DNA of 63,307 nt, the filler included, from Octopus bimaculoides (Eukaryota), in assembly GCF_001194135.2 (NCBI RefSeq). It is 4 parts of 3 records of this genome, joined end to end, with 100 filler letters (N's around TTAATTAATTAA, not from the genome) between each part and the next. Parts side by side here need not be neighbours in the genome. Positions count along the whole stretch, not along the records: positions 1 to 27,026 come from NC_068987.1; positions 27,127 to 43,493 come from NC_068999.1; positions 43,594 to 62,173 come from NC_068982.1; positions 62,274 to 63,307 come from NC_068982.1. One strand, given 5' to 3'. Positions 2,799-62,856 of this stretch are shown in pieces. A program made the translations under genes and the position numbers. Under the pieces are notes generated by a model. That model was not told the origin of the DNA and made no database searches. It saw only the letters and a list, made by a program, of their open reading frames with translations. Position 1 is the stretch's first letter. Each line of letters begins with the position of its first letter.

Positions 2799-3160
2799 NN
2801 NNNNNNNNNNNNNNNNNNNNNNNNNNNNNNNNNNNNNNNNNNNNNNNNNNNNNNNNNNNNNNNNNNNNNNNNNNNNNNNNNNNNNNNNNNNNNNNNNNNN
2901 NNNNNNNNNNNNNNNNNNNNNNNNNNNNNNNNNNNNNNNNNNNNNNNNNNNNNNNNNNNNNNNNNNNNNNNNNNNNNNNNNNNNNNNNNNNNNNNNNNNN
3001 NNNNNNNNNNNNNNNNNNNNNNNNNNNNNNNNNNNNNNNNNNNNNNNNNNNNNNNNNNNNNNNATATATATAGGGAGAATTCACAGAAAAACTAGACGAA
3101 GACAGGTGGTGTAGAAAACAAACATATATATTAGTATAACGCTCGGGAATTGAAAAAAGT

Positions 3161-3196
3161 CATTAACGTTTCGAGCCTACGCTCTTCCACAGAAAG
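3161..3196 (-). ncRNA. Minimal type-I hammerhead-like motif, variant core (F2 left arm)
   Basis: Minus strand reads CTTT-CTGTGGA-A-GAGC-GTAG-GCTC-GAAA-C-GTT-AATG. Core position 6 is U rather than A, and stem I is partly decayed. Confidence 0.55.
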
Positions 3197-3232
3197 GAAC
3201 ACAAAAAGAAACAAGGACTTTACTCTGTTTTC

Positions 3233-3269
3233 TGTTTCTGAAGAAGAGCTTTGCTCGAAACGTAAAACA
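3233..3269 (+). ncRNA. Minimal type-I hammerhead ribozyme, canonical core (F2 right arm)
   Basis: TGTTT-CTGAAGA-A-GAGC-TTT-GCTC-GAAA-C-GTA-AAACA. It has the CUGANGA and GAAA cores, a 4-bp stem II, a 5-bp stem I (TGTTT/AAACA), a GUA triplet and a loopless ACGU palindromic stem III. Confidence 0.8.
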
Positions 3270-3460
3270 ACCTTTCTTTCCTTCCTTGAGCGTCTGTTAA
3301 TACGTTGCATGTACCACGTCCTCGTGTTGTTGTTTTTTTTTTGTGTTTGTTCGTTTTGGTGGGGGGGATTTACTGCACACACACACACACACACATATAT
3401 ATATTATACATACATACGTACATACAAACACATACACACATACACGAACACACACATGCA

Positions 3461-3491
<31 letters not shown>

Positions 3492-3838
3492 TTACAGTTG
3501 GGTTTAATCACATTTTTTACTGATACAAGGGACGGAATTTGGCCAAATGAAATGTTTATAGCTAACAATTAAACGTAAAAAAATTGTTCTCCAAAACAAA
3601 ACCTTCCCATTAAAGGCCTCTCTCTATCTCCCCAGTTGCACGAAATGTGTTACAAATACTTGGGTATGAATGAAAATATATCAATGGCATTGTAAATAAA
3701 GATAGAGTAACCAAAGAATATTGCAGCGGATACAGCAGGCTTCAAAGATACAACAGTTAGAGTTTTCCTTTTACAATACACAATAAACCACAATGCATTT
3801 TCAGTACATAGACTATTATTAATATTTGGGATATTCAA

Positions 3839-4053
3839 AGCGGGATGCTGGCGGAATCGTTACCGCACCAGGCAAAGTGTTTAGCGGCTTTTCGTCCGTT
3901 TTTATATTCTGAGTTCAAATTTCGCCGCAGTCAGCTTTTCCTTTCATCTTTTCAGAGTCGATAAAAAGTAAGTACCAGTAGAGCCCTGGAGTCGATGTCA
4001 TTGACTTATGCCCCTTCTCCGAATTGCTGGCTTTGGGCCAAATTTCGAAACCG
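3839..4053 (+). mobile_element. SINE family B (tRNA-derived head; central CCTTTCATCCTTTCGGGGTCGATAAA-type domain)
   Basis: GCTGGCGGAATCGTTA...GAGTTCAAATT...CTTTCATCTTTTCAGAGTCGATAAAAAGTAAGTACCAG; homologous to about ten other copies in the window. Confidence 0.8.
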
Positions 4054-4084
4054 ATATTTGGGATAGTCGGTTTGTCTAGAAAGG

Positions 4085-4330
4085 AAATTCGTGGCTCCAT
4101 AGACATTGAAACATGTAAGATCCTGACATCAACAGCAAATTTCCACAGAAAGAGCAATAGCGACAGATTGTATCTCAAAAGAAAAATGGAAGGAAGAGGT
4201 TTAAGATTTGTACAAACAGTCTTCGAGTGTCGTAAAATAATCACTCAGAGGGCATCTGTTAAAGAACAGCATCAAAGATAAACTCATCAACCAAATATTC
4301 CGAAACGACGTGAAGAATATGGTGCATATT
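4085..4330 (+). mobile_element. R4/Dong-like non-LTR retrotransposon fragment (post-RT thumb region)
   Basis: SIDIETCKILTSTANFHRKSNSDRLYLKRKMEGRGL matches the D..TRK.LT...FH..SD.DRLY..R..GGRGL motif of RLE-type LINEs. Confidence 0.75.
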
Positions 4331-4384
4331 TATTTCCTGAGGATCTCCCACATGAAGCCAGAAGTGCCAGACTAGTATATATAT

Positions 4385-4450
4385 CAATTCTATATTTAAG
4401 AGATGAGGAATTATTTACATTATTTACATTATTTACATTTGACGGATATT
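4385..4450 (-). mobile_element. Family F1 3' tail fragment, inverted, abutting the Penelope ORF
   Basis: The reverse complement AATATCCGTCAAATGTAAATAATG...AATTCCTCATCTCTTAAATATAGAATTG matches the F1 tail at 62791-62856. Confidence 0.85.
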
Positions 4451-4452
4451 AA

Positions 4453-5079
4453 GACTATAAGTAGCGATCGTGATACCCACCACGAGGAAATGATCAAGCT
4501 CAGTAACAATCTATTAAGAAACAACTACCCCAAGAACATACTATCTACTCCAATTATGAAGAAAAGAGAGGATGAAACCAATAAACTGTCTACAGTCTGT
4601 CTACCCTATGTGAAAGGCCTCTCCGAAAAGATAAAAAAGATATGCGGCCCATATGACATCAGGGCAGTATTCAAGAGCAATACAACACTTCGCAAATATC
4701 TCCTTCGGGTAAAACCACCAACAGAAGAGAATATGACCAAAAACTGCGTGTACTCCATCCCATGCAGCTGTAGTAAGTTATACAAAGGCGAAACATGTCG
4801 CCCCCCCTCAAAATAAGGGTAGAAGAACATCGCAAAGCTGTGACACGAGGAGATATTGATAAATCGGGTATAGCTGATCATGTATGGAAAAATGGAAACC
4901 ACCTCCCCCTGTGGGATGAAGTTAAAATAATAGACAGGGAACAACACTGGAAAATACGAAAACTAAAAGAAGCAGTACATATGCCAGGACACAACAACCT
5001 CCTAAGCAGACCGAGTGCAGATATGAATAGCATATGGGAACCGGTATTGAGGAAGGATAGAAAAATAATAGATTTATAA
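4453..5079 (+). pseudogene. Penelope-like element ORF, C-terminal part (RT thumb/linker plus GIY-YIG endonuclease), one frameshift in the C-run near 4800
   Basis: LPYVKGLSEKIKKIC...VFKSNTTLRKYL, then NCVYSIPCSCSKLYKGETCRP/LKIRVEEHRK (GIY-YIG pattern vYxIpC..C...Y.GeT.R.L..R..EH), SGIADHVW and RKLKEAVHM. Confidence 0.9.
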
Positions 5080-5467
5080 GCCTTAAAATTCNNNNNNNNN
5101 NNNNNNNNNNNNNNNNNNNNNNNNNNNNNNNNNNNNNNNNNNNNNNNNNNNNNNNNNNNNNNNNNNNNNNNNNNNNNNNNNNNNNNNNNNNNNNNNNNNN
5201 NNNNNNNNNNNNNNNNNNNNNNNNNNNNNNNNNNNNNNNNNNNNNNNNNNNNNNNNNNNNNNNNNNNNNNNNNNNNNNNNNNNNNNNNNNNNNNNNNNNN
5301 NNNNNNNNNNNNNNNNNNNNNNNNNNNNNNNNNNNNNNNNNNNNNNNNNNNNNNNNNNNNNNNNNNNNNNNNNNNNNNNNNNNNNNNNNNNNNNNNNNNN
5401 NNNNNNNNNNNNNNNNNNNNNNNNNNNNNNNNNNNNNNNNNNNNNNNNNNNNNNNNNNNNNNNNNNA

Positions 5468-5845
5468 AGCTAATACCACCTGGTTTGAATATAATGGAAA
5501 GGGCAGGACATGCTCTCGTCCGTGAGAGGATCCATTACAACCGTTGGAAAAAACATCAACTAAATAACGAAATCAAAGAGAGGCTATCTTCATTACTTAG
5601 AAAAATAACTAGAGATGACGACAGAAAGAGAATCCAACAAGATCTAGGAAAATCGTACATGAAAGAATTTGAAACGGTGAAGACACGCCAGATTAAGAAG
5701 TTTATGAAACTCAAAGGTCGGAGAATGAAGACTGAAGTCCATCACCCACCTGTGAAAGCAGTGATTAATGTAAGCAGCCGACGTCTGGAAGACTCCGAAG
5801 AAGCCGTACTAAACAAAGGTCTCAACTTTGCGACAACCATCAAGT
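5468..5845 (+). pseudogene. Penelope-like element ORF, N-terminal part (second, tandem unit)
   Basis: KFMKLK...VINVSSRRLEDSEEAVLNKGLNFATT matches the conserved PLE N-terminal V.NLS...L...E..VL.KGLNF motif. It follows the endonuclease end across gap 5092-5466, the tandem layout typical of PLEs. Confidence 0.85.
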
Positions 5846-6058
5846 GCTACTAACCCCAAAGTTCGATTCACGGCAGCGACCTGATTAATAATAGTAATAA
5901 TAATAATATAATAATAGAAACATCGTTACTATTATTATGAGAACCCAGGTTCGAAATTTCCCCAAGACACCTGACGAAGGCTGGAGGGTATATCAGCCGA
6001 AACGTTGTGTTAACAACAAACAAGATGAGGACAAATATCCGTCAAATGTAAATAATGT
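5846..6058 (+). mobile_element. Family F1: tRNA-like head remnant + (AAT)n + hammerhead-bearing tail
   Basis: GCTACTAACCCCAAAGTTCGATTC (B-box-like), an AAT tract, then GAGAACCCAGGTTCGAAATTTCCCCAAGACACCTGACGAAGG...; collinear with 62597-62856. Confidence 0.8.
5966..6011 (+). ncRNA. Minimal type-I hammerhead ribozyme (F1)
   Basis: GACAC-CTGACGA-A-GGCTG-GAGGGTATAT-CAGCC-GAAA-C-GTT-GTGTT. Cores are intact, stem II is 5 bp, stem I is GACAC/GTGTT, the triplet is GUU and AACGTT is a palindrome. Confidence 0.8.
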
Positions 6059-9000
6059 AGTATATATATCATCTATCTGAATGTTTTGTTGCCTCTTTCT
6101 TGAATCACCGAACTGTCTGGATGTTTTGCGTTTTTGTCCCATTTCGTATTATATATATATATATATATACCTTTTTAAAGGGATGTGATAAACCTACTAT
6201 AATGGGTAATACTAAGTGTATTTTTTCTTTTGTGATGTAATCTTTGGACTAACAATGTTTGCGGCTGAAGATAGCTTTAACAAATCTTTTATATCAATAA
6301 TATACCCATGGTGATGTAATAACAGATTGTTTATAAAGCTTGAAACATGTGTACCGCGATATCCTTTGTGTTCTGTTTTCAAGTTATGTTTGATATATAT
6401 ATATATAAAAAAAACTACATACGTAGTACATATGTATTTACGTACATAAATATATGAACTTGTGTATACATTTATGTGTGTGTGTATATATGTAAACGCA
6501 TGTAAGTGTATACAAACAACTGGTTAAATGTTTCCCCGTGGAATTTAATATGACCTCAATTGTTATAAATACCGGACATGAAAGTATAACTTTGTTTTTC
6601 CGGCCCATAAGTACTATACATATGAAGGTGTGTGTGTGTGTGTGTGTGTGTGTGTCTGTCTGTCTGTCTGTCTGTGTATGTGTGTGTTTGTTTTTAGTGG
6701 CATGTTTGTATATCATTTAAATTAGACATGGAAGAAACCATCAGCTTCGAAGATGGCAACAGCTGGCCACTGGAGTCAACTGATGCAGATGGTAACATAC
6801 AAGAACGCTGTGCTTGAATGTAAAATGCAGGACAAACGTTTGGCGCAATGTTTTATGACTGGAACACGCACTGAAAGGTATGGGGATCGCCTCAGTCATT
6901 TTGACAATCTCCTGCATTTTCATACAAGCTCACGTCTCTTGACTTTGTCTTGCCACCAAGAAACATTGCATGAGAACGAGAGAGTGAGTGTGCAGAACAC
7001 ACGTCTCTTTCACTAAACCCTTGCGCTCGTCTAGCGAATATGTGTATATATGTGGCACATAGTTAACTAAGCCACAATGAAGTGCTAAATAGTTTTGTTG
7101 TGGTGGTTGTTGTATTTCTGCAAAGCAGTAACGATGAAACACTTTCCTACTTTTCAGCCACATGGAACATGCAAGATAGACGGGAGAAGTCACACATCCG
7201 CGTTTCCTACTTCGTGGCTAGTGTTCTCTGTTGAAGCGTAGCATCGTCAGTGAAGATCTTCAATTATTACTGTTGAGCGAAATCTCTTGCAGTCACAGAT
7301 GGTGGGTCTCCCATTGCAGCTGTGGGGGAGTGTTAAACATCTATAACAATGAAATATCAACACTTTTACAGCTTCAGGGGGTACAGAAGATGTAGCGTAA
7401 AAGGATCGAGTTTTCTTCATTCGCAAAATACGCTTTTTGTAGAAGATAGTGAAAACTCTGAAAATTGGGTTATAATAATATAGCCTTCCTGTCTCATTGC
7501 TTTGAAGGTTTGATGTGGAGGAAAAAAATCGGAGAGAAAAGTTACAGAGGTTTAAAAATCGAAAAAACACTGGGTATTTTTAGCCAATAGCGAGACAGAT
7601 ATTTTCTGTGTTTAGCGGAGCGGTGTCAACTGTGAAATGTAGCGTCTGACCTGTTCATTGTAGGTTTGTAAATAAATTGAAATACCTAATAAAAATCAAC
7701 ATGTATCACCTGGCTCATTCATTAATTGTATTTAAACAATTTTTTTAAAAATGTATTATATCAATATATTTGTCTGCATGTGTTTACTTAATGCGTATTT
7801 CAGTATTATATATACCTGTCATGTATTTATGTACCTCATTAATATATAAGTGTATGTGTGTATGTGTGTGTGTGCTAAAAGGGGGCGTCTGTCTCCAAAA
7901 CTCCAAAGTTGAGTAACGTTTTCATGCTTGGATTTGTAAACTACGATAAGAATAAATACAGAAAAAGCAGAGAAAAATACAACCACACAGAACGACAGGA
8001 AAATGCGTAATGTTCTAACACAGAAAAATTCAATCAAAACACGTGGGTGAAAAGAATCTCGTGGTGTGAAGAATCAATTGCAAAAATCAGCATCGAACAA
8101 CGTGCGTCACAGACAACAGTGAGACAGCAGTGAAGTGAACCACAACACAGCGTCCTGTTGTCATGGTAACAAGCTGTTAATGCCACGCTGTCTGTTGATT
8201 GGCTGAAATGACCCAAATTTCGCAAATTTAATTGCAAATAACATCAGATTCTTTAATTTACGAGATAAAGTAATTGGTTGATCGTAATCAAAATTCAGAG
8301 TTGTATCGATACACCAAAATTGAAAGCAATCTGAACAAAATTAAAGGGGGCTGATTCTGCGAATGAGAAGGACTGGAGTAGTTGTAATTATCTGGTCCCC
8401 TGCAGGAATGTGTACACTTTTGAGTTTTGATTTCATGGCTGAAGCCGTTGTCTTCATTGATCAGTAATGGCGGAACAAGCTTTAATATTTCGTCTTTACT
8501 TCTTAAACACTTAAATTTATTGGCTGTCACTAGAACATCAAACATGGCGACGAAATATATATCTCAGGTACTTAAATGCAGAACATGCAACTTTTATACA
8601 TAAAATATTACACACGCACACGCACGCACACACACACACTCACGCACACATTCACACACACACATATATATAAAAAAAGGTACGTGTAGTAGTTATGCAT
8701 TCTTTTTCAAGTTGTCATAAGAAAGCGAAGTATTTCTATTCAAGTCGGATGTTTTTATATTCATTCTTTTATCTCCGGTACATGTTGCATAAAAAGCGGC
8801 CATGCAGGAAACACCCAATTTGTACACACAAACAAACACACACACACACACACACACACACATGCATAGAGAAGGAGAGACAGAGATACAGGGGTGCATA
8901 TAATGTATATAGAAGAAAAGAGTATATATAAAAGTGTATATCTGNNNNNNNNNNNNNNNNNNNNNNNNNNNNNNNNNNNNNNNNNNNNNNNNNNNNNNNN

Positions 9001-10249
9001 NNNNNNNNNNNNNNNNNNNNNNNNNNNNNNNNNNNNNNNNNNNNNNNNNNNNNNNNNNNNNNNNNNNNNNNNNNNNNNNNNNNNNNNNNNNNNNNNNNNN
9101 NNNNNNNNNNNNNNNNNNNNNNNNNNNNNNNNNNNNNNNNNNNNNNNNNNNNNNNNNNNNNNNNNNNNNNNNNNNNNNNNNNNNNNNNNNNNNNNNNNNN
9201 NNNNNNNNNNNNNNNNNNNNNNNNNNNNNNNNNNNNNNNNNNNNNNNNNNNNNNNNNNNNNNNNNNNNNNNNNNNNNNNNNNNNNNNNNNNNNNNNNNNN
9301 NNNNNNNNNNNNNNNNNNNNNNNNNNNNNNNNNNNNNNNNNNNNNNNNNNNNNNNNNNNNNNNNNNNNNNNNNNNNNNNNNNNNNNNNNNNNNNNNNNNN
9401 NNNNNNNNNNNNNNNNNNNNNNNNNNNNNNNNNNNNNNNNNNNNNNNNNNNNNNNNNNNNNNNNNNNNNNNNNNNNNNNNNNNNNNNNNNNNNNNNNNNN
9501 NNNNNNNNNNNNNNNNNNNNNNNNNNNNNNNNNNNNNNNNNNNNNNNNNNNNNNNNNNNNNNNNNNNNNNNNNNNNNNNNNNNNNNNNNNNNNNNNNNNN
9601 NNNNNNNNNNNNNNNNNNNNNNNNNNNNNNNNNNNNNNNNNNNNNNNNNNNNNNNNNNNNNNNNNNNNNNNNNNNNNNNNNNNNNNNNNNNNNNNNNNNN
9701 NNNNNNNNNNNNNNNNNNNNNNNNNNNNNNNNNNNNNNNNNNNNNNNNNNNNNNNNNNNNNNNNNNNNNNTCTTCCGATCTTATATATATCGATATATCG
9801 ATATATATCAGTTTTTAAATATATCAATGAATCAGTCATTAAATTAAAACATTAAAAATCTATGAATACATAAATATATAATGGTTTAATATACATCAAT
9901 AAATTGATGAGTGAAATCATGTTACAAAAGTGTAGATGTATAAAAATATAGATGTATAAAAGTATAGGTGCATAAAAGTTTATTTAGAATTTCACCCATA
10001 TTAAAAGCGTTGTAGAACGGCGTTGTAAAAATTATTTAAGAACAGAATTTCACTGATCTATTGATATATGTATATTAAAATTTTATATATTTATGTATTC
10101 CTAGATTTTTTATATATTCTAATATTTTAATGACTGGTACATTGATATATTTAAAAACTGATATATATCGATCCATGATAGAATATATGTTTATTTAAAT
10201 TGTTGATCTTATCAGAGATTCAAGTACTCGTTGTCTTATTTCTGTAGTT

Positions 10250-11117: not shown

Positions 11118-11196
<79 letters not shown>

Positions 11197-11292: not shown

Positions 11293-11492
11293 AATCCTTT
11301 CTACTGAAAGCACAAGGCCTCAAATTTTGGGGAAGGGATTAAATCGATTACATCGACCCCAGTACGTAACTGGTACTAATTTTATCGACCCCGAAAGGAT
11401 GAAAAGCAAAGTCGACCTCGGCAGAATTCGAACTCAAAACCTATCGGCAGACGAAATACCGGCGTGCTAACGATTCTGCCAGCACGCCGCCT
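11293..11492 (-). mobile_element. SINE family B with a long flanking direct repeat
   Basis: ATCGACCCCAGTACGTAACTGGTAC...CGACCCCGAAAGGATGAAAAGCAAAGTCGACCTCGG...CGATTCTGCCAGCACGCCGCC; the flanks 11243-11289 and 11498-11552 are duplicated. Confidence 0.9.
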
Positions 11493-13722: not shown

Positions 13723-13753
<31 letters not shown>

Positions 13754-14635: not shown

Positions 14636-14668
<33 letters not shown>

Positions 14669-14881: not shown

Positions 14882-14912
<31 letters not shown>

Positions 14913-15174: not shown

Positions 15175-15717
15175 GATCTAGGGAGAGTAATCTACCGGGA
15201 GCTTTGTAGAAAGCTAGGATTTGAACATGTTGATAAATGGCATGAAGATGAAACTAGTAAAGTACTCGAAAGTAAGAAATATAAGATGTTGTAGGACTTT
15301 AATATTCAAACTGACAGAGGAATAGAAGCTGGGAGGCCTGATTTGGTAGTCGTAGATAAAGAGAATAGAAAGCGCAAGATAATTGACTTTACAGTCCCAA
15401 ATGATGAAAAAATCAATATGAGTAGTATAGAAAAAAAACAGCCAAGTACCAGGACCTAGATATTGGATTAGGGAGACTATGGAAAGTGCGAGTAAAAGGT
15501 ATCCCAGTCGTTATAGGTGCATTGGGAGCTATCCCTAAAGATCTGAACAGATGGATGGAGGAAATAGGCATAAAACCCAGTATAGTACAGCTGCAGAAAA
15601 CAGTGTTATTAGGGACAGCTAGAATACTTAGGAAGGTTCTTAGCATCTAAGGTTACTTGCTGTAGCCCGATGTGCATATCTTTTCTTTCCCAACAGTCGA
15701 ATTTGTTGTGTGTATAT

Positions 15718-17843: not shown

Positions 17844-18061
17844 ACGAGGGAGTGTCAAAACTTTCCTGGCTTTAAGTGTATCACGAAAGGCTTGGCCGGA
17901 AGCCCAGCCTTCCGGCTTCTTTTACAGGGTTTGGAAAAGCTGAAGGATCGCTGCAATAAGTCTATAAATCTGAAAGGGGAATATGTTGAATGAAATCATA
18001 ATTAACGGACCCTCCTGTATTTTCTTTTACCCAATGCCAGGAACTTTTCAGCAACCCTTCA
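17844..18061 (+). mobile_element. Internally deleted mariner element (MITE-like)
   Basis: Terminal inverted repeats ACGAGGGAGTGTCAAAACTTTCCTGGC / GCCAGGAACTTTTCAGCAACCCT. The interior encodes GLEKLKDRCNKSINLKGEYVE*, the mariner transposase C-terminus. Confidence 0.8.
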
Positions 18062-19845: not shown

Positions 19846-19935
19846 AGACTTTTTCAATTCCCGAGCGTTATACTAATACATCTGTTTGTTTTCTACACCA
19901 CCTGTCTTCATCTGTTGTTTTTTGGGAATTAATCC
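19846..19935 (+). mobile_element. F2 copy containing only the sequence downstream of the hammerhead
   Basis: AGACTTTTTCAATTCCCGAGCGTTATACTAATACATCTGTTTGTTTTCTACACCACCTGTCTTC is the reverse complement of 3095-3160. Confidence 0.85.
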
Positions 19936-19944
19936 TATATATAT

Positions 19945-42641: not shown

Positions 42642-42660
42642 GCTAAGCCATCTTTAAGAT

Positions 42661-47964: not shown

Positions 47965-48126
47965 CTTTACATCGACCTCAGTGCTCAAATGGTACTTATT
48001 TTGTCACCCCACAAAGGATGAAAAGCAAAGTTGAGCCCGGACGCATTTGAACCTAGAACGTAAAAACAGACGAACTGTCGATAAACATTTTGCCTGGTGT
48101 GCTAGTGATTCTGCCAGACTACCGCC
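47965..48126 (-). mobile_element. SINE family B, decayed, followed by an (AAT)/(GAT) tract
   Basis: CACAAAGGATGAAAAGCAAAGTTGAGC...GATTCTGCCAGACTACCGCC. Confidence 0.8.
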
Positions 48127-49400: not shown

Positions 49401-49599
49401 ATTGCAGCGTGGAAGGTGTTTATAAGCCATTTAAAATAACACACAAAAACCGTGCTGCAGCACAGAATTTTGTCAGTGAACAGGTCGCGGTCTCAAAGCG
49501 ACGAAAATATTTTGACAAATTAAATTTAAATGTTGAAGCGAATCTAACGGTTTTTGTGTGTTATTTTAAATGGCTTATAAACACTTTCCACACTGCAAT
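49401..49599. mobile_element. Family F3: element with 53-bp terminal inverted repeats and an internal hammerhead fold
   Basis: 49401-49453 and 49547-49599 are reverse complements with two mismatches, and a 12-bp palindrome GTGCTGCAGCAC lies at 49452-49463. Confidence 0.88.
49469..49519 (+). ncRNA. Minimal type-I hammerhead-like motif with G3-C8 swapped core (F3)
   Basis: TTTGTCA-GTGAACA-G-GTCGC-GGTCTCAAA-GCGAC-GAAA-A-TA-TTT-TGACAAA: 7-bp stem I, 5-bp stem II, AATATT palindromic stem III, UUU triplet. Confidence 0.65.
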
Positions 49600-49759
49600 T
49601 GTTTTCGTTCCAGCACACGATCTCAGATCAGGTCACTTGCTATGCAAGTACATCTCCGTAAATATATATTAAATGTGCAATAATTCTGACCATTACAGCA
49701 AATATTATATTATAACTGTTAGTTACTTATAATCGGTTGTATGTATATGTTGTTGTTTG

Positions 49760-49962
49760 TGCTTATGTTTGTCCCACCCACCATCGCTTGACAACCGATG
49801 TTGGTGCGTTTAGATCCCCGTCACCTAACGGTTCGGGAAAAAGACCGATAGAATAAGTACTGGGCTTACAAAGAATAAGTCCTGGGATTGATTTATTCGG
49901 CTAAAGGTGGTGCTCCAGCATGACCGCAGTCAAATGACTGAAAAAAGTAAGAGAGTAAAAGA
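49760..49962 (+). mobile_element. SINE family A, 3' half
   Basis: CCATCGCTTGACAACCGATGTTGG...GACCGATAGAATAAGTAC...GCAGTCAAATGACTGAAA. Confidence 0.9.
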
Positions 49963-50054
49963 GTAATATATATATATATGTATTATTTATTGTTATTATT
50001 TAATTGAACGCCACGCATCCATTTCCAAGTAAGTGTATATATATATGCTTTTAT

Positions 50055-50427
50055 TTTTTATTCTTTTATATGTTTCAGTCATTTGACTGCGGCCATGCTG
50101 GTGCACCGCCTTTACTCGAGCAAATCGACCCCAGGACTTAATGCTTGTAAGCCTTGTACTTATTCTATCGGTCACTTTTCCCGAACTACTAAGTTACGGA
50201 GACGTAAACACACCAGCATCGGTTGTCAGCGATGTTGGGGGAACAAACACAAACACACAATCAAACACACACACACACACATACACACACATATATATAT
50301 ATACACACGACGGGCTTCTTTCAGTTTCCGTCTACCAAATCCGCTCACAAGGCTTTGGTCGGCTCGAGGCTATAGGAGAAGACACTTGCCCAAGTTGCTA
50401 CGCAGTGGGGCTGAACTCGGAACCATG
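50055..50427 (-). mobile_element. SINE family A, near full length
   Basis: TTTCAGTCATTTGACTGCGGCCATGCTGG...GACACTTGCCCAAG...CTGAACTCGGAACCATG. Confidence 0.9.
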
Positions 50428-50520
50428 CATTATATTATGTATTATTTTATTCTTTTATACGTTCCCGGTACTGAAATATTCCTGGCTTTGGGTGAAAGAA
50501 AATACAGGCGGATGATACAG

Positions 50521-50702
50521 TTCTATATTTAAGAGATGAGGAATTACGTACATTATTTGCATTATTTACAATTGACGGATATTTGCCCTCACCTTGTTTG
50601 TTGTTAACACAACGTTTCGGCTGATATACCCTCTAGTCTTCATCAGGTGTCTTGGGGTTCGAAATTTCCCCAAGACACCCGATGAAAGCTGGAGGGTATA
50701 TC
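50521..50702 (-). mobile_element. F1 tail and hammerhead (minus) joined to an inverted partial copy (plus)
   Basis: 50521-50657 is the reverse complement of the F1 3' half. 50658-50702 reads TTCGAAATTTCCCCAAGACACCCGATGAAAGCTGGAGGGTATATC on the plus strand. Confidence 0.88.
50606..50651 (-). ncRNA. Minimal hammerhead (F1) with intact core and damaged stem II
   Basis: Minus strand reads GACAC-CTGATGA-A-GACTA-GAGGGTATAT-CAGCC-GAAA-C-GTT-GTGTT, with two A.C mismatches in stem II. Confidence 0.65.
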
Positions 50703-52607
50703 GCGAGGTTTTTTTGGAATGTAACACTCGCGATAGTAGAGGGCTTACTGTGTCTGGAATGATTGATAAGATAGAAACGTTTAAGAAGATTGGCATGACA
50801 TTTGGTGTTCCTCTTTCAGGAAGGGAGATAAATGTTATTGACAAAATCATATGAAATTATTTCAAATCTATAAGATTCATCTGTAAATACTTCAACTAAA
50901 ATTGTTTGTATTACTTTTATTTCCCTTTTTTTTACATACAAAGAAAATAGACTTCGACATATCTTGCTGTGTTATAAAGCTACAATAATTTCACAAATTG
51001 TAGGTTAAATGCCGGTTAAATACAGAATTCAAACAGGGAAAATTCAAGTAATTAATTTGCAACTGTTTAGATGAATGTATTTGTGAAAATTTTCATCTAT
51101 AAGTCAGTTAGATAATTTATGTTGTAAAAATATTATGGACAGCATTCATAAATGTTTTCGTGTTTCCGTGTCAATGGGATAATTTATGCTGTCAAGTTTC
51201 ATGTGTGCAAACAGATAACTGGCTATCTTACAAAGAAAAAAAATTCGGTTAAACGTACACATATTTATTGGCAGAAATTCCTTTTCAAACTACGTCAAAG
51301 TAAAAGTTAGCTTGCTCTTAAGAGAGTGCACAGCGAGCAGAATAACAACCGATGCATGATTGCTGTCAGAATTTAAAATCCGGCACAGTAAATAGATGTG
51401 TTTATGTCGAACGAATGACGCCACACGAAAAAAGATAGAGGTGAATAAATTTTCAAGTAAATTTACAGGTAGATTAGGCTTCCCTAGTTACTAGTCTCTG
51501 ATTGGTTAAACCAGAACGTGTTATGAGATCGAATTAAAATGGCAGCAGTCGAAATGGCGTCGCTACAAATATACATACCACTAATATGAATCTCAACGAG
51601 GTCGCTTCACAGTTAGAAAGAGACATAAAATAGAAAGAGAGAGCATATCGAGTAAAGGAGTCCAAGATAAACTATGAATGAAGTAAAGACGAAATGGTCA
51701 TCACCAGAATTTCTTTTCTCACATAGTCACCTGCTAACTTTCAAAGATATAAAGATACAAAGGTTTAAGTACTGGTGATAAGATTTTAGCTAGAAAGGCG
51801 ATTATAAATGTACATGCGCGCACATAGACACACACAGAATCCAGATATTGGAACAAAAATTTATTATGGTAATAAAGCAATATGCATAGTAGTAAGTTTT
51901 ATAAAGATCACTCGAAATGACTGTAAAATAGAGCTACTATATTAGGTAAATAAAATTTAATGTTTTGTCACTAAGATAGAGATTACAAAAGAGCGGTGAA
52001 TGAACTTCCAATTCGTAAATGAAGTCTCTCAGTTATGTGTAGCAAAATTAGACTGAGAAACTAAAGTAACTCTATTGCCAGAATCAGAAGTGAAAAATAA
52101 GCAGCAGAAACGAAAGAATGTTGTGCCAACTGTGAACGACAACATTGCATCAATAAATATATCAGCAATTGTTTGGTAATCTTCCAATGTGCTACAACAC
52201 TGCCAAAACAGTCAATAAATCAAACAGTTGATATGGAAATATTGTTGTAGTGGAAGAAATTATAGACCAAACTAGAAGTCACGTGATTAATGTCAGTATT
52301 GGAAATGATTTATGTGATACACACTGAATTGGTGGCACGGGGAATTGTGACACAACACCATGATACAGCACTACGACACGTCCCTGTAAGACAGCCCTAT
52401 ATGATTGTATTGTGAGTGTATAGACCGACGCTGTTATATTGTAGTGTCACTGTTACCGTTGACTGTACGTTACCGTTGACTCTACGACACAGCGCTATGT
52501 CAAAGCACTTCGATATAACGCTGCACCATCACAATGTTACCTTATAATGTTGCATTGAACCTCTTCTCCATGACATTGTACCTTGATACGTATTGGTATA
52601 CACAACC

Positions 52608-52637
<30 letters not shown>

Positions 52638-52658
<21 letters not shown>

Positions 52659-53654
52659 AACTTCACGAAAGAGGGAAGAAAGGGAGAAGTAGCACACAAA
52701 CAGGTGCGAGTGTTAGTATGAACGCTAACACCGCCACCACCACCACCACAACTACAAATGTTACCACCATTACAACTACCAACAACAACAACAACAAAAA
52801 CAAGGACGCAAGGTCATCCGCCACGAATATCTCTGCTAATACAAACACTGTCTTCACCACTGCTACCACCACTACCGCCGCCACCACCACCACCACCACA
52901 ACAACAAACACGAACTTTGTCGAGGCTTTGAAACCAAGGAAAGAAATAATGAATTTCACGAAAGAGGAGTTACTCGAATGCAAAAGTATGCTCACCAAAA
53001 ACGATATAACAATCCATCTACAGACACCCACAGACATTACAAAAACATTGCAAAAAGAAAAAAAAACAATTATTTATAAAACGCTCAACACAAAAACAAA
53101 GACTCCAGAAAAATTTAGTCAGGAAAATGTCGAGAGATGTTTAAGGCCCATATGGGCTTTTAAAAACTACATTACGAGGGGAAACAGGTTCGCAACAATC
53201 GAAGTGATATTCGACAGCGAACAGCGAGCCAGGGACCTCTCCACAAAGTCATTTCAACATGAAAACCTGCTCATGATCCCTACGTACCTTGGTCGTAGGG
53301 TGACAAAAATAAAAAACATCCAATTTGCCTCCTGAAATTGAAGTAAAATGGCTCGTATCGGTCATATGTTACGACATAGAGGAGGAAATAAATATTTTAG
53401 AAGTCACTGCCCCGGACCATGAAAACTGGATTGGCCAGGAAATTCAACTTCTTGTACAAGTTGATCCAGCCAATTACGAAAAGATTTCTCACAGAATCCA
53501 ATTAACAGAGGATTCGAGCTTCCGTGTTGCCGTCGAAGGCAGAAGGTCAAGTTGCTACGTTTGTAGTAGCAAAACTCACTTAAGATGCCCAGTAGCTCAG
53601 GAGCAAAGGCAACAACAACGTCAACAACAAAACCAAGAAAAACAACAACAATAA
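52638..53654 (+). pseudogene. Non-LTR retrotransposon ORF1-like protein (L1/Tx1-like; RRM-like region plus CCHC knuckle), one frameshift near 53310-53330
   Basis: Thr/Asn-rich leader, then ITRGNRFATIEVIFDSE...IPTYLGRRVTKIK / PPEIEVKWLV...FRVAVEGRRSSCYVCSSKTHLRCP. No splice structure and no ORF2 follows. Confidence 0.7.
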
Positions 53655-54304
53655 CCACAAGAAAACCATAAACAGAACAAAAAGCCAGCATTACTGCCCA
53701 CACCGCCATATACACAACTGGTTAAGCAGCTGTACAAAGAAATGCAGAAACGCCAACAACCAGCAGGCCATAAAATGCATTGTTCGGAGCGGAAGCTATA
53801 GTGGTAGCCCTTATTACACGCATACTGTTGAAACAAGGCTAAAAGCAAGAAAGCAAGTGGTTTCTATACATACATACATACATGCATGCATACATGTGTA
53901 TATATATCGCACACACACGCGCATGAAAGTGGGTATCCTGTTAGAACATAGAATACTACGATAGATATGGAGAGAAGCATCTGCTAATGATATTAAAACG
54001 AGTGCTTATATGCACCTCAAATCTATACGAGAGTTTCTCTCATGTTAGCTGTCATATTATTCTGTTCTAACACATCTACTTTATGTGGGGATATATATAT
54101 ATATATATATANNNNNNNNNNNNNNNNNNNNNNNNNNNNNNNNNNNNNNNNNNNNNNNNNNNNNNNTCCCCCTCTCTCACATTTCCTGACCTTCTATTCA
54201 TGCACACTTTCCCTCCTCTTTCACTTCACTCTGTCCATTTCATTTTTTGCTCGCCCCTCCTTAATTCTTCTATCCCTCTGCCTCTACCTCTCTCTCTCTC
54301 TCTT

Positions 54305-55210: not shown

Positions 55211-55375
55211 TTTGAGTTCAAATTCAGACACGATCGACTTTGCCTTTCATCCCTTCAGGGTCGATTAAATAAGTACCAGTTACGCACTGGGGTCGATGCA
55301 ATCGACTAAATCCCATTGTTTGTCCTTGTTTGTCCCCTCTATATTTAGCCCCTTGTGGGCAATAAAGAAATAAAT
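55211..55375 (+). mobile_element. SINE family B, 5'-truncated
   Basis: GAGTTCAAATTC...GACTTTGCCTTTCATCCCTTCAGGGTCGATTAAATAAGTACCAG. Confidence 0.85.
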
Positions 55376-56282: not shown

Positions 56283-56317
<35 letters not shown>

Positions 56318-56379
56318 CATTATTATTATTATTATTATTATTATCATTATTATTATTATTATTATTGGTATTATTGTCA

Positions 56380-56744
56380 TGGTGGCGAGCTGGCAGAATC
56401 GTTAGCAAGCCGGGCAAGACGCTTCGCGGCATTTCGTCTGTCTCCACGTTCTGAGCTGAAATTCGACCTGGGTCGATTTTGCTTTTCATCATTCGGAGTC
56501 GATAAAATAAGTACCAGCTGAATACTGAGGCCGATGTAATCGAATTAACCCCTCCTCCGAACTTGCTGGCCTTGTGCCAAACTTTGAAACAATTATTATT
56601 ATTATTGTTATTGCGAGCTGGCAGAATCGTTAGCATACCGGACAAAATGCTTCGTGGTATTTCGTCTGTATTTACGTTCCGAGTTCAAATTCCGTCAAGA
56701 TTGGCTTTGATTTCTATCCTCTCGGTGTCGATAAAATAAGTAGC
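56380..56744 (+). mobile_element. Two tandem SINE family B copies
   Basis: GCGAGCTGGCAGAATCGTTAGCA begins near both 56385 and 56613. Confidence 0.88.
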
Positions 56745-57510
56745 ATTCTCGGTGACTCCTGGGGTTTATTCACACCGCGTCTTTACATTTTGTTGGCCAT
56801 GATTTCCACAGAGCTCCCAATGGTTCATTCTTGCCGCATTATCATGTCGTCTTTTGTATTCACGTTGTGCCAGTTTCGGGCATTCGCTAACGATGTGCCA
56901 TGCCGTTTCACCCCTCTCACCACTCATTCTGTCTTTGTCAGTAGTGCTGTCGGTAGTGTTGTCGATTCTGCACTTCACATAGTTAGTCCTTAATGTTTGT
57001 TCTTGTGCTGCGCATATAAGTGCTTCTGTCTCTATCTTCAGGTCACTCCTCATCAGCCATAGCAACCGGTCGTCTGTATCTCTCTTGACGTTGGTATCTC
57101 TTGCAAACTGACCGTAAATGTCTTTCTCCTTCCATGCTGTTTCTTTTTTATGTTCCTTTCCTCTTTAAGTTTTCTTTCTTTACACAATTATCAGTTTTAA
57201 TGACCCTGGGCTTCTTCACATGTTTCAATAATGGTTCCACGGTATATTTTACATACTACCCCGAGCTGTTTTTCTCTGTTTCGACACAATCCTGACAGCT
57301 GATCTAACCTCTCTCACTCTTTCTTGTGGACAAGTGCAGCCTAAGGTGAAAGTCTCCGTACACTGTCAATATCTTTCTTGTCTTCCTATTCATGTTCATC
57401 AGTTCTTTCTTTTGCCAGTTAATGAGTCCAACTCCATACCAAAGTGATGCCCATGTATTAACTGCTTGGATTTTATTCCATCCGACAGTTTTGAGCGCAC
57501 GTCTATTTGT
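56745..57510 (-). mobile_element. R4/Dong-like LINE fragment (thumb to zinc knuckle)
   Basis: NKIQAVNTWA...NRKTRKILTVYGDFH and SDLKIETEALICAAQEQTLRTNYVKCRID...GETAWHIVSECPKLAQREYKRRHDNAARMNHWELC. Confidence 0.9.
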
Positions 57511-57863: not shown

Positions 57864-57894
<31 letters not shown>

Positions 57895-58970: not shown

Positions 58971-59974
58971 ATATATCAAAAGTTAGACAAACAAAGGAAA
59001 AATAGCCGAAAACTGGGCGAAAACATAACAGACAGACAAGGGAGACAAGAATACGATACAAGGAACATTCGCAGCTGACTTTCTCATCAATTGGTTTCTG
59101 AGACGTCTTAGTGGTTTCACACTATCTGAAACCAAAACCACTGTTATCTAACGAGAACACCAGAGCATAGAGCTACAGCAAAAAGCTGACTAATGTGTGC
59201 GAGGACATGACGAAATAACATTGCGTGTACAATAAGAAATAACAAGATCTAACATAAGGAAATATAGAATATAGAATAGAAAATGCTTTACGGCTGAACT
59301 ATAAGCAAAAGAATAATTATACTATACAATATTAAAGCAATACAATACAAACAGGAAAAAGACTTTTCGGCTATCAAGAGAGATGTAGTGAGGTAGCGCA
59401 AAGAAATGGAAAATGTCCGTGAGGGACGGAACACAAACGTATCTGATTTGGCCAGTAGGAGGCCGAAAAAGAACGACGCACTTTGACTAGACACCGGCCA
59501 CGTGGTAGGAGAGAGGAGAGGTGATGGAAGGACTAAGGAATGACAGAGGGAAAGAGAGAGGCAGAAGGGTAAGAGAGAGAGAGGCAGAAGGGTCAGAGAG
59601 AGAGAGAGGCAGAAGGGTAAGAGAGAGAGGAGAAAGAACAGGGTCCAAGGGAGACAATTAAGGGGGAGGGGAAAAAAGAGAGAAGAAATAGGAGAGGAAG
59701 AAAGAGCTAAAGAGTCGCACTACAAATATTCAGAGAATATCTTTTACAGTTAAGTAAATAAGCGGGGGTGCATTGTGCTGTAATAAATATTTCAAAAGTT
59801 AGACAGAGAAGGGAAAAATAGACGGAAACTGGGAGAAAACATAACGGACAGAAAAAGGAGACAAAAACACTATACAAGGATCATTTGCAGCTAATTTTCT
59901 CATCAGTTTGTTTCCGAGACGACCTAGTGGCTCCACGTTATTTAAAACCAAGACCACTGCTATGTAATGGGAGC

Positions 59975-60006
<32 letters not shown>

Positions 60007-60495
60007 NNNNNNNNNNNNNNNNNNNNNNNNNNNNNNNNNNNNNNNNNNNNNNNNNNNNNNNNNNNNNNNNNNNNNNNNNNNNNNNNNNNNNNNNNNNNNN
60101 NNNNNNNNNNNNNNNNNNNNNNNNNNNNNNNNNNNNNNNNNNNNNNNNNNNNNNNNNNNNNNNNNNNNNNNNNNNNNNNNNNNNNNNNNNNNNNNNNNNN
60201 NNNNNNNNNNNNNNNNNNNNNNNNNNNNNNNNNNNNNNNNNNNNNNNNNNNNNNNNNNNNNNNNNNNNNNNNNNNNNNNNNNNNNNNNNNNNNNNNNNNN
60301 NNNNNNNNNNNNNNNNNNNNNNNNNNNNNNNNNNNNNNNNNNNNNNNNNNNNNNNNNNNNNNNNNNNNNNNNNNNNNNNNNNNNNNNNNNNNNNNNNNNN
60401 NNNNNNNNNNNNNNNNNNNNNNNNNNNNNNNNNNNNNNNNNNNNNNNNNNNNNNNNNNNNNNNNNNNNNNNNNNNNNNNNNNNNNNNNNNNNNNN

Positions 60496-60539
<44 letters not shown>

Positions 60540-61952
60540 CACACACACACACACACACACATATAAATATATGCATATATATACATGTATATAGGCATCT
60601 CTCTCTCTCTATAAATTGTAGTGTGTATATTCTGTAAACTTGAATTACAATTATAATTTCTTTTACTGTCCTCGTGACTGACGTTTAGCTTCTGTATTTA
60701 GCTTAGCTTCTCTCTTTTGTCATGAAGTGTAACATTATTTATCTTCCAGGATCACTTATTAGTCACATCATTCTCTGAAAACTGCCTTAATCTATTTACA
60801 TTGCAGCTGTTTAATATGTGACTGACAATTAGATTAGACAATTTCCACCTGATTTGCCAGGTATATATGGACATTTCGCAGCAGCTTTCTTCTGCTGGTG
60901 TATTCCGTTAGATGAGCGTAGTTTATCAACTTCTCCATATACACTCATCTAAGACATTGTGTAAGGCAGTTTCTGTTCTCAACATCGTGAGTGCCAGGAT
61001 ATTTATTGAGGTCGTTTAGAGCTAAACTCGTCCTCATAATTAGATTTTTCTTTCAAGTGGTGCTACTATCTCAACTTAATCTTCAAAGCTGCATTCTGTA
61101 TTTCAATATTTCAATTTCTGGAGTTGGTGCTAACACGAATTTATGCTTCCTCTCTAGTCTAAAGACTTTATAACAGAGTTATTACACTAGCCTAATAGAT
61201 TTTTTTTACACAGGGACTCTCAATCATACACAAGAGTGTGAACGACACAGTTGAGATAATATGAGGCGTAATGTGTATATATGTCTGTGGGTGTGTATGG
61301 ATGTGTCATGTGTGTCTCGTGAGTGTCGCACGCGCGTGTGTATGTGTGTGTGTGTGTGTGTGTGTCCTGTGTGTGTGTGTGTGTGTGTGCCTTATGATCT
61401 GTGAAACGGAATTGAGTTTTAGTCAGTTGGTTTAGCAAATTTCTAGTGAAGAAAAAAGATTTCAAAGAAAATTCCACAACCAAAAGTTAATAGAAAATGG
61501 CATGGCATGAACTTATAGAGGAAGAAAATTAATAATCAAACAAGTAGATTTAATAGTTTTTTTCTCCTTCAATATACTATGTCAGAAAACAAAGAATAAA
61601 ATAAAGAAAAAGAAGATAACATCTAACTCTCATTGCTAAAACCATTGCAGTGCACCTATCACTGTCAATAAAAGTATGTCTTTTTAAAACAATCATCTCA
61701 CACGTCAGACAGATGTCACCCTTTTCCTCATTTTCTGCATGAACTTCTCTTTTCTTCTCGAAATTAAAGAAAATGGCTCCCGGCAATCTGTATAATGTCG
61801 TGGCAACAGTGAAGAAATGTATGATATGTCTCCTTAAATCATTGTCAACAGCACAGCATTCTGGGATAAATTGTGGGTGATATTTGTTATCACATACATG
61901 TGTCCAACTGTACGAATCTACAAGCTCTGTGTGAGTGGCGTGTGAACGTGTA

Positions 61953-61990
<38 letters not shown>

Positions 61991-62274
61991 AGTGTGTGTA
62001 TGTGTGTAAGCTTGTGAATATTTAAATGCGTGTCTACTGAAACATCAGTCGGTGTGTTTGTATATACGTTTGTATGTGCATAAATGTATAAATGCTAATA
62101 TATCTATATCTATATGTGTGTGCGTGTATGTGTGTGTGTTTGTGTGTATGTGTGTGTATATATATTTGTATGTNNNNNNNNNNNNNNNNNNNNNNNNNNN
62201 NNNNNNNNNNNNNNNNNTTAATTAATTAANNNNNNNNNNNNNNNNNNNNNNNNNNNNNNNNNNNNNNNNNNNNT

Positions 62275-62453
62275 CCACAAGGTCTGTTTGGGTGGTAGAA
62301 CTCCTGTTCGGATGGGTTTGAGTGAGTATCCTGCTTCTTTTGTGGCTGCAGTGGCTGCCGCATATATCATGTCATTTAGCTCAGTGATATTGCCTGTTGT
62401 TTCTGTGGTTGTTAGTTCCGTGACGGCCAGGTTTATGCTATTTATTATTGATG

Positions 62454-62455
<2 letters not shown>
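62275..62455 (-). mobile_element. R4/Dong-like LINE N-terminal fragment starting at an (AAT)n tract
   Basis: The minus frame NITELNDMIYAAATAATKEAGYSLKP...W resembles the L.E.N.L.YAAA motif upstream of the R4-clade RT. Confidence 0.6.
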
Positions 62456-62520
<65 letters not shown>

Positions 62521-62590
62521 TAGGTTACTGCCTGGAATCGAACTCGGAAACTTGGAATTAGTAGCCGGCGTTCTTCACCACTACGCCATA
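62456..62590 (-). mobile_element. F1 tRNA-like head + (AAT)n, minus copy
   Basis: Minus strand reads TATGGCGTAGTGGTGAAGAACGCCGGCTACTAATTCCAAGTTTCCGAGTTCGATTCCAGGCAGTAACCT(AAT)n; A box TGGCGTAGTGG, B box GTTCGATTCC. Confidence 0.8.
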
Positions 62591-62596
62591 TTCCCG

Positions 62597-62856
62597 TGGG
62601 AGTACTGGTTAAGAGCTCGGGCTACAAACCCCAACATTCCGAGTTGGATTCCAGGTAGTGACCTAATTAATAATAATAATAATAATAATGATAACATCGA
62701 AAAATACCTTAGGAACGAGGTCCCAGATTCGAAATTTCCCCGAGACACCTGATAAAAGCTGGAGGGTATATCAGCCGAAACAACAAACAAGATGAGGACA
62801 AATATCCGTCAAATGTAAATAACGTACATAATTCCTCATCTCTTAAATATAGAATT
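62597..62856 (+). mobile_element. F1 near-complete copy with inactivated hammerhead
   Basis: Head GGGAGTACTGGTTAAGAGCTCGGGCTAC...GAGTTGGATTCC, AAT tract, core CTGATAA (G8A), GTTGTGTTAAC deleted, tail ending TCCTCATCTCTTAAATATAGAATTG. Confidence 0.85.

What the first reader, a model, noticed from the sequence alone, without database searches (positions are those of the whole stretch)
3072..62856. Window-wide system: several short hammerhead-bearing retroelement families inserted as outward-pointing inverted dimers
Seen in sequence: three repeat families with unrelated flanks and stems (F1 at 5966, 50606 and 62744; F2 at 3161, 3233 and 33119; F3 at 49469) all fold into the same minimal type-I hammerhead. 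Each has one extra purine between A9 and stem II and a self-complementary stem III (ACGU or AAUAUU) too short to fold alone. In five places the units are inverted with their 3' tails pointing outward: 3072-3360, 49401-49599, 50521-50702 and 62456-62856 are directly back-to-back, and 4385/6058 brackets a PLE ORF. Established: Penelope-like elements carry minimal hammerheads in their pseudo-LTRs that cleave as dimers through a palindromic stem III, and PLE insertions often have inverted ends. Inference: these are non-autonomous PLE parasites. Paired RNAs, possibly held together by the ribozyme dimer interface, may prime reverse transcription at both ends of a break and give TIR-like inserts that would be misannotated as MITEs.
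Basis: partly seen in the sequence, partly recalled or inferred. Interest (0 to 1): 0.88.

Follow-up and report, generated by a model that had tools for sequence, protein, structure and literature searches.

The report
Octopus Penelope ends with tRNA-like head
These back-to-back repeats in an octopus genome are mostly the cut-short ends of ordinary Penelope jumping genes, which are known to carry tiny self-cutting RNA motifs and to insert with a flipped second end; the one unusual part is that the best-studied family has, in its terminal repeat, a tRNA-like stretch that would act as an RNA polymerase III promoter.

Summary
The repeats and their head-to-head geometry are real, but they are not ribozyme dimers, and F1 is not a separate parasite. 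The window is Octopus DNA. F1 is the pseudo-LTR plus tail of the adjacent Penelope/Poseidon element: its hammerhead reads in frame as the ORF's N-terminus, and reads leaving its 5' end run into the ORF's stop region. 4385-6059 is one insertion with a 14-bp target duplication. Only 3 of 7 named hammerheads pass a minimal descriptor, and 0 of 5 pairs have two intact ones. Outer ends are fixed, inner junctions vary genome-wide, so these are not MITEs. Inverted 5' arms, the extra purine and the palindromic stem III are all published. Best mechanism (inferred): both ends of a staggered cut prime reverse transcription at the element's internal start sites, through the protein, not the ribozyme. Not found in print: an A-box/B-box tRNA-like head inside this pseudo-LTR, with inverted junctions clustering at its start, and a natural G3-C8 hammerhead core in F3. 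F2 and F3 have no identified parent element. Cleavage and Pol III transcription are untested.

The parts
4373..4386 (.). left copy of a 14-bp direct repeat (target-site duplication, 2 bp shared with the insert end)
4385..4450 (-). inverted 5' arm: tail plus 36 nt of F1, no hammerhead
4451..5079 (+). 5'-truncated PLE ORF: linker and GIY-YIG endonuclease region, frameshift near 4801-4804, stop at 5077-5079
   Evidence: 51-53% to P0102 aa 640-846; 75% to P0009
5080..5091 (+). first bases after the stop; in other copies this runs on into the tRNA-like head
   Evidence: 5083 T>C majority
5092..5466 (+). assembly gap; inferred to hold one pseudo-LTR and the ORF start (about 417 nt expected against 375 N)
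   Evidence: inference
5467..5845 (+). N-terminal part of the same PLE ORF (second, internally deleted tandem copy)
   Evidence: 84% to P0004; P0102 aa 121-238
5846..6059 (+). F1: 3' half of the tRNA-like head, (AAT)n, ATG at 5937, intact minimal hammerhead 5966-6011 (predicted cut 6006/6007), ending at the proximal fixed end
6058..6071 (.). right copy of the 14-bp direct repeat
50518..50657 (-). F1 arm with hammerhead (3 of 5 stem II pairs) and full tail
50656..50702 (+). F1 arm, 5' half of the hammerhead only (U4C), no tail
62456..62600 (-). F1 arm: tRNA-like head with exact A box (from 62588) and B box 34 nt apart, then (AAT)n; no hammerhead, no tail
62593..62857 (+). F1 arm: diverged head, (AAT)n, decayed hammerhead (G8A, 11-nt deletion), full tail
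3072..3215 (-). F2a unit, hammerhead-like with A6U, 3' end at (TA)n
3216..3360 (+). F2b unit, intact minimal hammerhead (N3 at 3238)
33037..33222 (-). F2a unit, A6U, 3' end at (TA)n; 5' side lost in a gap
19846..19944 (+). F2a tail without hammerhead, unpaired, 3' end at (TA)n; begins about 2 nt below the predicted cut
49401..49453 (-). F3 inverted arm: last 52 nt only, no hammerhead
49452..49599 (+). F3 unit: 12-bp palindrome at the junction, hammerhead with G3-C8 swap and AAUAUU stem III (N3 at 49476), tail

Best explanation
F1 is the terminal repeat, ORF start and tail of an octopus Penelope/Poseidon retrotransposon left behind by 5'-truncated insertions, F2 and F3 are likely the ends of other Penelope-like families, and the head-to-head pairs likely arise when both DNA ends of one staggered cut prime reverse transcription. 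Steps: (1, shown) the unit is stop codon - tRNA-like head - (AAT)n - ATG - hammerhead - two fixed 3' ends about 30 nt apart. (2, from the anole Poseidon work, inferred here) the element's protein nicks both strands at an AT-rich site and starts reverse transcription inside the RNA at those two ends. (3, inferred) two cDNAs grow towards each other, usually stop early and are joined at short homologies or palindromes, giving fixed outer ends, variable inner junctions and a target duplication (these three products are shown). (4, inferred) the ribozyme rides along, is not needed to pair the arms, and decays in dispersed copies. (5, inferred, weakest) the head is a captured tRNA/SINE promoter that would let Pol III make short template RNAs.
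For: In-frame match of F1 to the N-terminus of full-length PLE proteins beyond the ribozyme core (P0102 aa 18-61, E 5.6e-6 among 128 proteins). 527 RNA reads leave the head's 5' end with a consensus whose reverse complement hits only 5074-5091, just after the ORF stop (0.01 expected). Two fixed 3' ends with unrelated flanks in all 4 runs. Summed DNA depth falls from hammerhead to endonuclease (7-9x) to ORF N-terminus (about 500x), the polarity of 5' truncation. 8 distinct tail-arm junctions and 21 head-arm junctions among the rows shown. 14-bp target duplication round 4385-6059. The inverted arm at 4385 carries the tail that the sense arm lacks and joins to the endonuclease region, so it cannot be a fold-back copy of its neighbour. 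6 of 125 fetched relatives carry an antisense pseudo-LTR translation, 5 in front of a truncated endonuclease. PAc cuts and extends both strands (PMC11167929).
Against: No parent ORF was found for F2 or F3. The ORF-to-head join is seen in a 30-letter consensus (agreement 0.65), not in one continuous record; the window has a gap there. Palindromes sit at the F3 and head junctions, as the self-priming model expects. Summed contig depth is no copy number. The window copy lacks the RT core. tRNA origin of the head is not confirmed by ARAGORN or Rfam.
Confidence: 0.72

Rival explanations
1. Same elements, but the inverted arm comes from one priming event followed by self-priming or a template switch at a palindrome (the model of Arkhipova et al. 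2013).
For: 12-bp palindrome at the F3 junction; a 12-bp near-palindrome at the head's 5' end in the family majority, where 15 of 21 shown junctions fall; published palindromes at pLTR 5' ends.
Against: The 4385 arm has a tail absent from the sense arm and no symmetry at its junction (best 3 bp); the F2 pair joins two different subfamilies; many junction positions.
Confidence: 0.15
2. One reading: short non-autonomous units whose RNAs pair through the palindromic stem III and so prime both ends.
For: Stem III can only pair between molecules; cofolding gives a gain of 3-6 kcal/mol for each of three units, though largely through stems I and II. Missing ribozymes in the DNA arms do not prove that the RNA templates lacked them. 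A mixed F2a/F2b pair shares the ACGU palindrome.
Against: F1 is part of the autonomous element; 0 of 5 pairs with two intact ribozymes; the palindrome is lost by C-to-T change in about half of the reads that span it (224 against 209); PAc ribozyme mutants insert normally; Naiads without canonical hammerheads also show inverted arms.
Confidence: 0.08
3. The units are MITEs moved by a DNA transposase.
For: F3 shows 52-bp inverted ends.
Against: Arm lengths and junctions vary; unpaired and truncated copies exist (19846); 14-bp duplication; homology to a PLE ORF.
Confidence: 0.03
4. Pairs are independent insertions that happened to land next to each other.
For: PLEs tend to insert near earlier copies; could hold for the F2a/F2b pair, whose left flank is in a gap.
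Against: 5 of 5 pairs head-to-head ((1/4)^5 = 0.001); one target duplication round a whole pair.
Confidence: 0.02

Closest known systems
Penelope/Poseidon clade of Penelope-like elements (Penelope of D. virilis, PAc of Anolis, Pen2a_Av of Adineta)
   Same: C-terminal GIY-YIG region, no linker zinc finger, pseudo-LTR that includes the first codons of the ORF, optional 30-nt tail at one end, partial tandem with internal deletion, inverted 5' arm, target duplication of about 10 bp.
   Different: The pseudo-LTR holds an A-box/B-box tRNA-like head and an (AAT)n run; the described promoters are LINE-like, TATA-less or TATA/Inr.
Minimal type-I hammerheads of metazoan PLEs (Cervera and de la Pena 2014)
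   Same: Extra base between A9 and 10.1, palindromic 15.2-16.2, short stem I, mostly single motifs from truncated PLEs, some pairs 100-700 bp apart on opposite strands.
   Different: F3 has G3-C8 and F2a has A6U; neither is among the 56 aligned representatives, whose search was itself biased to the canonical core.
Non-LTR retrozymes (Cervera 2020; Li et al. bioRxiv 2026)
   Same: Short hammerhead-bearing units related to PLE pseudo-LTRs.
   Different: Those are head-to-tail arrays making circular RNA; none of the 12 fragments here is in a head-to-tail array.
Schistosoma Sm-alpha SINE-like repeats
   Same: Pol III promoter followed by a hammerhead (review passage).
   Different: Tandem satellite with a canonical hammerhead, not the terminal repeat of a protein-coding PLE.
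Octopus tRNA-derived SINEs OR1, OR2 (CORE-SINEs) and OK
   Same: tRNA-like head, octopus host.
   Different: F1 has no significant match to the two other SINE families in the window; the 1994 paper was not read, so identity with a family named there is not excluded.

Membership tests
Penelope/Poseidon PLE (F1 and its ORF) | RT with DKG and YxDD motifs in one ORF with a C-terminal GIY-YIG endonuclease | tested here: met
   Met on the full-length relative P0102 (RVT_1; motifs), to which both window ORF pieces align; the window copy itself lacks the RT core.
Penelope/Poseidon PLE (F1 and its ORF) | No zinc-finger linker between RT and EN (unlike Neptune, Nematis) | tested here: met
   No CX2-5CxxC in P0102, P0134, P0010
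Penelope/Poseidon PLE (F1 and its ORF) | Pseudo-LTR overlapping the ORF start, hammerhead inside, optional 30-40 bp tail | tested here: met
Penelope/Poseidon PLE (F1 and its ORF) | Placement in the clade on an RT tree | not tested
   No reference set of PLE RTs was laid in the script machine
PLE terminus (F2, F3) | Physical link to a PLE ORF | tested here: inconclusive
   No hit among 128 fetched proteins, none for the F3 frame, only a stray frame through another F2b copy (P0130), no motif hit in the Naiad/Hydra supplement
Minimal type-I hammerhead | Core bases, stems I and II, palindromic stem III | tested here: met
   Met at 3 of 7 named sites; not met at the other 4
Minimal type-I hammerhead | Self-cleavage as a dimer | not testable with these tools
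   No pile-up of RNA ends in fragmented RNA-seq, which is a weak test
tRNA-derived SINE (F1) | A and B boxes at tRNA spacing | tested here: met
   Exact in 1 of 2 near-complete heads; 3 of 300 shuffled windows had such a match anywhere
tRNA-derived SINE (F1) | Head homologous to a tRNA | tested here: inconclusive
   No call by ARAGORN at default or 80% threshold, partial cloverleaf at 50%; no Rfam tRNA hit; best phage match a tRNA gene at E = 2
tRNA-derived SINE (F1) | Unit begins at the head and is separate from its autonomous partner | tested here: not met
   Most reads at the head's 5' end go on into the ORF stop region; a head-starting subset remains possible
MITE | Fixed-length terminal inverted repeats, short fixed target duplication | tested here: not met
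   F1: variable arms, 14-bp duplication; F3: one copy only, no duplication seen
Non-LTR retrozyme | Head-to-tail arrays of hammerhead units | tested here: not met
   0 arrays among 12 fragments in the window; not tested genome-wide

The most novel reading that the evidence does not exclude
An autonomous Penelope element has captured a tRNA-derived Pol III promoter into its pseudo-LTR, so that every truncated copy reaching the head is a ready-made SINE: promoter, ribozyme and RT start site in about 270 nt. One element would be LINE and SINE at once, which would explain the very high number of short copies and the clustering of inverted junctions at the head's +1 (15 of 21 shown). Alongside it, octopus PLE ends use natural G3-C8 and A6U hammerhead cores that standard searches miss, and mixed-family pairs would record two different RNAs priming one break.
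Probability: 0.3. Interest if true: 0.65.

Novelty: new variant of a known kind. Interest (0 to 1): 0.38.

Why it matters
The structure flagged is textbook PLE anatomy, so by itself it adds little. Three details could matter. A tRNA-like promoter inside a PLE pseudo-LTR would be a new route to SINE birth and a first Pol III-driven, PLE-mobilised unit of this type; I found none in the held literature. Variant cores (G3-C8, A6U) would mean that hammerheads in animal genomes are under-counted. And a genome with tens of thousands or more of such inverted pairs makes the open question of how PLE inverted ends form directly testable by counting, once a gap-free assembly is used.

Tried and rejected
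The repeat finder was swamped by N runs and microsatellites. Rfam gave no hammerhead hit among the 150 rows shown of 250 and none for 62500-62900. No whole genome was available, so no genome-wide consensus or orientation table could be built; contigs round the related proteins could not be fetched either. Exact motifs of F1, F2, F3 found nothing in viral contigs, and F1 nothing in metagenome or prokaryote contigs; P0102 found no loci. Free-energy z-scores of single units were weak (-2.4 to +0.7), as expected for minimal motifs. A MAFFT alignment of six ribozymes did not align the stems, so no pair count was made; stem covariation within a family is not shown (the only core-region variant displayed for F1 is at the free position N7). 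Idea that F2 or F3 are the ends of the octopus Naiad or Hydra-1 families: their listed ends differ and four motifs gave no hit (line breaks can hide a motif). Idea that copies begin at the ribozyme cut: one F2a copy does, but F1 depth shows no step there. Absence of T4 terminators on 1282 nt of sense strand: about 1.6 expected, not significant. P0129 hit and its Pfam matches are chance matches to a repeat. Earlier notes of the scan: none. Two key papers were not held.
Full report
Source. The window is AT-rich animal DNA with 27 N runs (9114 N). Its PLE fragments are 84% and 75% identical to proteins named from Octopus sinensis, so the host is an octopus; the species was not determined. No whole genome was held; genome-wide evidence comes from two lays of four public run sets on F1.

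Observation. A minimal type-I descriptor (core, stem II of 4 or more pairs, palindromic stem III, stem I of 4 or more pairs) finds exactly three sites in the window, +3238 (F2b), +5971 (F1) and +49476 (F3, only when the 3-8 pair may covary), against a mean of 0.025 in 40 shuffles. The other four named sites fail: -50646 has two stem II mismatches; +62749 has G8A and lacks 11 nt; -3192 and -33150 have A6U and a broken stem I. The family majority restores G8, the stem II base and the deleted bases of the 62749 copy, so F1 has an intact motif as a family and decays in copies; about half of the reads across the palindrome show ACGT changed to ATGT (224 against 209). All five pairs are head-to-head, which two control SINE families are not (0 of 4 neighbour pairs). 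But no pair has two intact ribozymes, three have an arm with none, and two arms have no tail. The pairs are one longer arm plus a truncated inverted 3' end, not dimers.

What F1 is. From ATG 5937 the hammerhead and tail are an open frame that aligns to residues 18-61 of P0102, a full-length 847-residue RT-endonuclease protein, and to P0005, also beyond the ribozyme core. The same P0102 matches both ORF pieces at 4451-5064 and 5491-5844. Upstream of the ATG, copies share a linker, (AAT)n and a 75-80 nt head (loose-end agreement 0.74-0.87). At the head's 5' end, 527 RNA reads (depth there 627) continue with a consensus whose reverse complement matches only 5074-5091, the ORF's stop region (0.01 expected; one of three mismatches is removed by the 5083 majority base). 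So stop-head-(AAT)n-ATG-hammerhead is the pseudo-LTR of the autonomous element; the 375-N gap would hold about 417 nt of it. Copies end at two fixed points about 30 nt apart, followed by unrelated AT-rich flanks (agreement 0.42-0.49 in DNA): this is the PLE tail, which in the anole element lies between two internal RT start sites (PMC11167929). Summed depth in two DNA runs falls 7-9 fold from hammerhead to endonuclease and about 500 fold to the ORF N-terminus; the tool warns this is no copy number, but divided by single-contig depth it suggests the order of 100,000 short copies (rough inference). 4385-6059 is one insertion: inverted tail arm, truncated ORF, pseudo-LTR, internally deleted second copy, pseudo-LTR, within a 14-bp direct repeat. 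Inner junctions differ from copy to copy: 8 distinct tail-arm joints among the rows shown (15 of 233 and 12 of 164 rows shown) and 21 head-arm joints (15 of 81 and 12 of 84 shown). Relatives from other, unnamed assemblies show the same inversion: 6 of 125 fetched proteins begin with or contain the antisense pseudo-LTR.

F2 and F3. Both look like ends of other PLE families (hammerhead, tail, 3' ends at (TA)n in 3 of 3 F2a copies, inverted short arm in F3), but no parent ORF was found. F3's tail ends ten codons after an ATG, as pseudo-LTRs often do; this is a resemblance only. F3's core has both C3G and G8C, a pair swap that partly restores activity in the anole ribozyme; it is seen in one copy. 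F2a's A6U is seen in 2 of 2 copies.

Mechanism. The anole protein cuts and extends both strands, starts at the same internal sites on each, is predicted to be a dimer, and inserts normally with a dead ribozyme. Two cDNAs primed from the two ends of one cut and joined in the middle give just what is seen. The 4385 arm argues against simple fold-back: it carries the tail that the sense arm lacks and is joined to the endonuclease region without symmetry. Palindromes at the F3 and head junctions keep the self-priming model alive. Nothing here requires ribozyme-held RNA pairs, though truncated DNA arms cannot exclude them. RNA reads cover F1 about equally on both strands, follow the DNA depth profile and show no piled ends, which fits read-through of dispersed copies.

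The head. One window copy has an exact A box and B box 34 nt apart (box consensus recalled; 3 of 300 shuffled windows had such a match anywhere). tRNA ancestry is inferred: ARAGORN draws a partial cloverleaf only at a 50% threshold, Rfam finds none, and the best phage match is a tRNA gene at E = 2. From recall it resembles eukaryotic tRNA-Arg. 15 of 21 shown junctions fall within 62591-62601, the predicted +1 (7 of 11 among those whose between-letters are known, none with ORF-end sequence; p = 0.002 under a uniform model). Cautions: only the best-supported rows were shown, the laid stretch stops matching the family at 62600, and a near-palindrome lies at the same place. Head depth is no higher than ORF-end depth (ratio 0.6-1.6), so head-starting copies are at most a subset.

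Comparison with print. Extra base, palindromic stem III, single motifs from truncated PLEs and opposite-strand pairs: PMC4209133 (parts 1-2 of 4, supplement parts 1-2 of 3). Head-to-head inverted pseudo-LTRs, ORF codons in the repeat, tail, 8-10 bp duplications, solo repeats: PMC3846280 (passages). Inverted 5'-truncated copies in all clades and an octopus Hydra-type hammerhead: PMC8557442 (passages, supplement searches and part 2 of 59). Internal RT start: PMC11167929 (parts 1-2 of 4). Retrozymes as non-autonomous PLE derivatives: bioRxiv 10.64898/2026.07.22.740005 (part 1 of 5, passages; supplements closed) and PMC7229834 (passages). Penelope promoter and variable inverted ends: PMC2377424 (passages). 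Natural U3-A8 and A6C cores: PMC3088659 (passages). PLEs are 6.8% of the O. vulgaris genome, with no mention of hammerheads: PMC13282606 (part 1 of 3, passages, supplement search). Sm-alpha: PMC6765202 (passages). OR1/OR2: PMC4824008, PMC4758252, PMC5804259 (passages). PMC6962438 (passages) added nothing. Searches for a tRNA-headed or Pol III PLE repeat or a PLE-dependent SINE (listings only) and for natural G3-C8 or A6U cores showed none, but Lunse et al. on PLE hammerhead variants, Ferbeyre 1998, Ohshima and Okada 1994 and Repbase were not seen and may hold them.

Verdict. The flagged system is a known PLE insertion structure; the ribozyme-dimer mechanism is unsupported; the tRNA-like head in the pseudo-LTR and the variant cores make it a new variant worth a modest follow-up.

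Noticed in passing
window 42650-43098: Self-inverted repeat (73% over 474 nt) whose left end abuts (TA)n and resembles the F3 end; a CUGAUG...GAAAC remnant sits at the junction. Possibly a fourth head-to-head PLE end; it fails both descriptors.
   Followed up: partly
window 9797-10172: AT-rich self-inverted repeat (72% over 394 nt), MITE-like or PLE-type; unclassified.
   Followed up: no
window 58971-59151 and 59787-59967: 180-nt direct repeats (83%) round a 640-nt spacer, ending at (TA)n; LTR-like or partial-tandem element, no ORF or hammerhead found.
   Followed up: partly
window 3847-4051, 11310-11491, 29560-29765, 41047-41397, 47967-48117, 55213-55314, 56373-56745: Abundant tRNA-headed SINE, 9 hits, probably the CORE-type OR family (name from literature passages, not tested).
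   Followed up: partly
window 50044-50430 and 8 further hits: Second SINE with a central (CA)n, probably OK (recalled name); 49738-49960 and 50044-50430 form a tail-to-tail pair round an AT-rich stretch.
   Followed up: partly
window 15202-15539: Degenerate restriction-like endonuclease fragment of a non-LTR element (40-47% to the N-terminal part of P0018).
   Followed up: no
window 52574-53964: A-rich broken ORF with a zinc-knuckle-like motif, perhaps a LINE ORF1; no Pfam hit.
   Followed up: partly
window 17900-18051 / 50471-50511: 41-nt shared repeat next to the 50518 F1 arm.
   Followed up: no
joint 4456-5979: One head-to-head F1 junction is carried by 177 RNA reads and an RNA contig, i.e. 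a well-transcribed locus that would fold into double-stranded RNA.
   Followed up: no
loose end at 4759: 338 RNA reads join the endonuclease region to one foreign upstream sequence (agreement 0.99): a single expressed chimeric copy.
   Followed up: no
window 27071-27082, 43538-43549, 62218-62229: Short islands between paired 44-N runs, an assembly scaffolding pattern, not biology.
   Followed up: no
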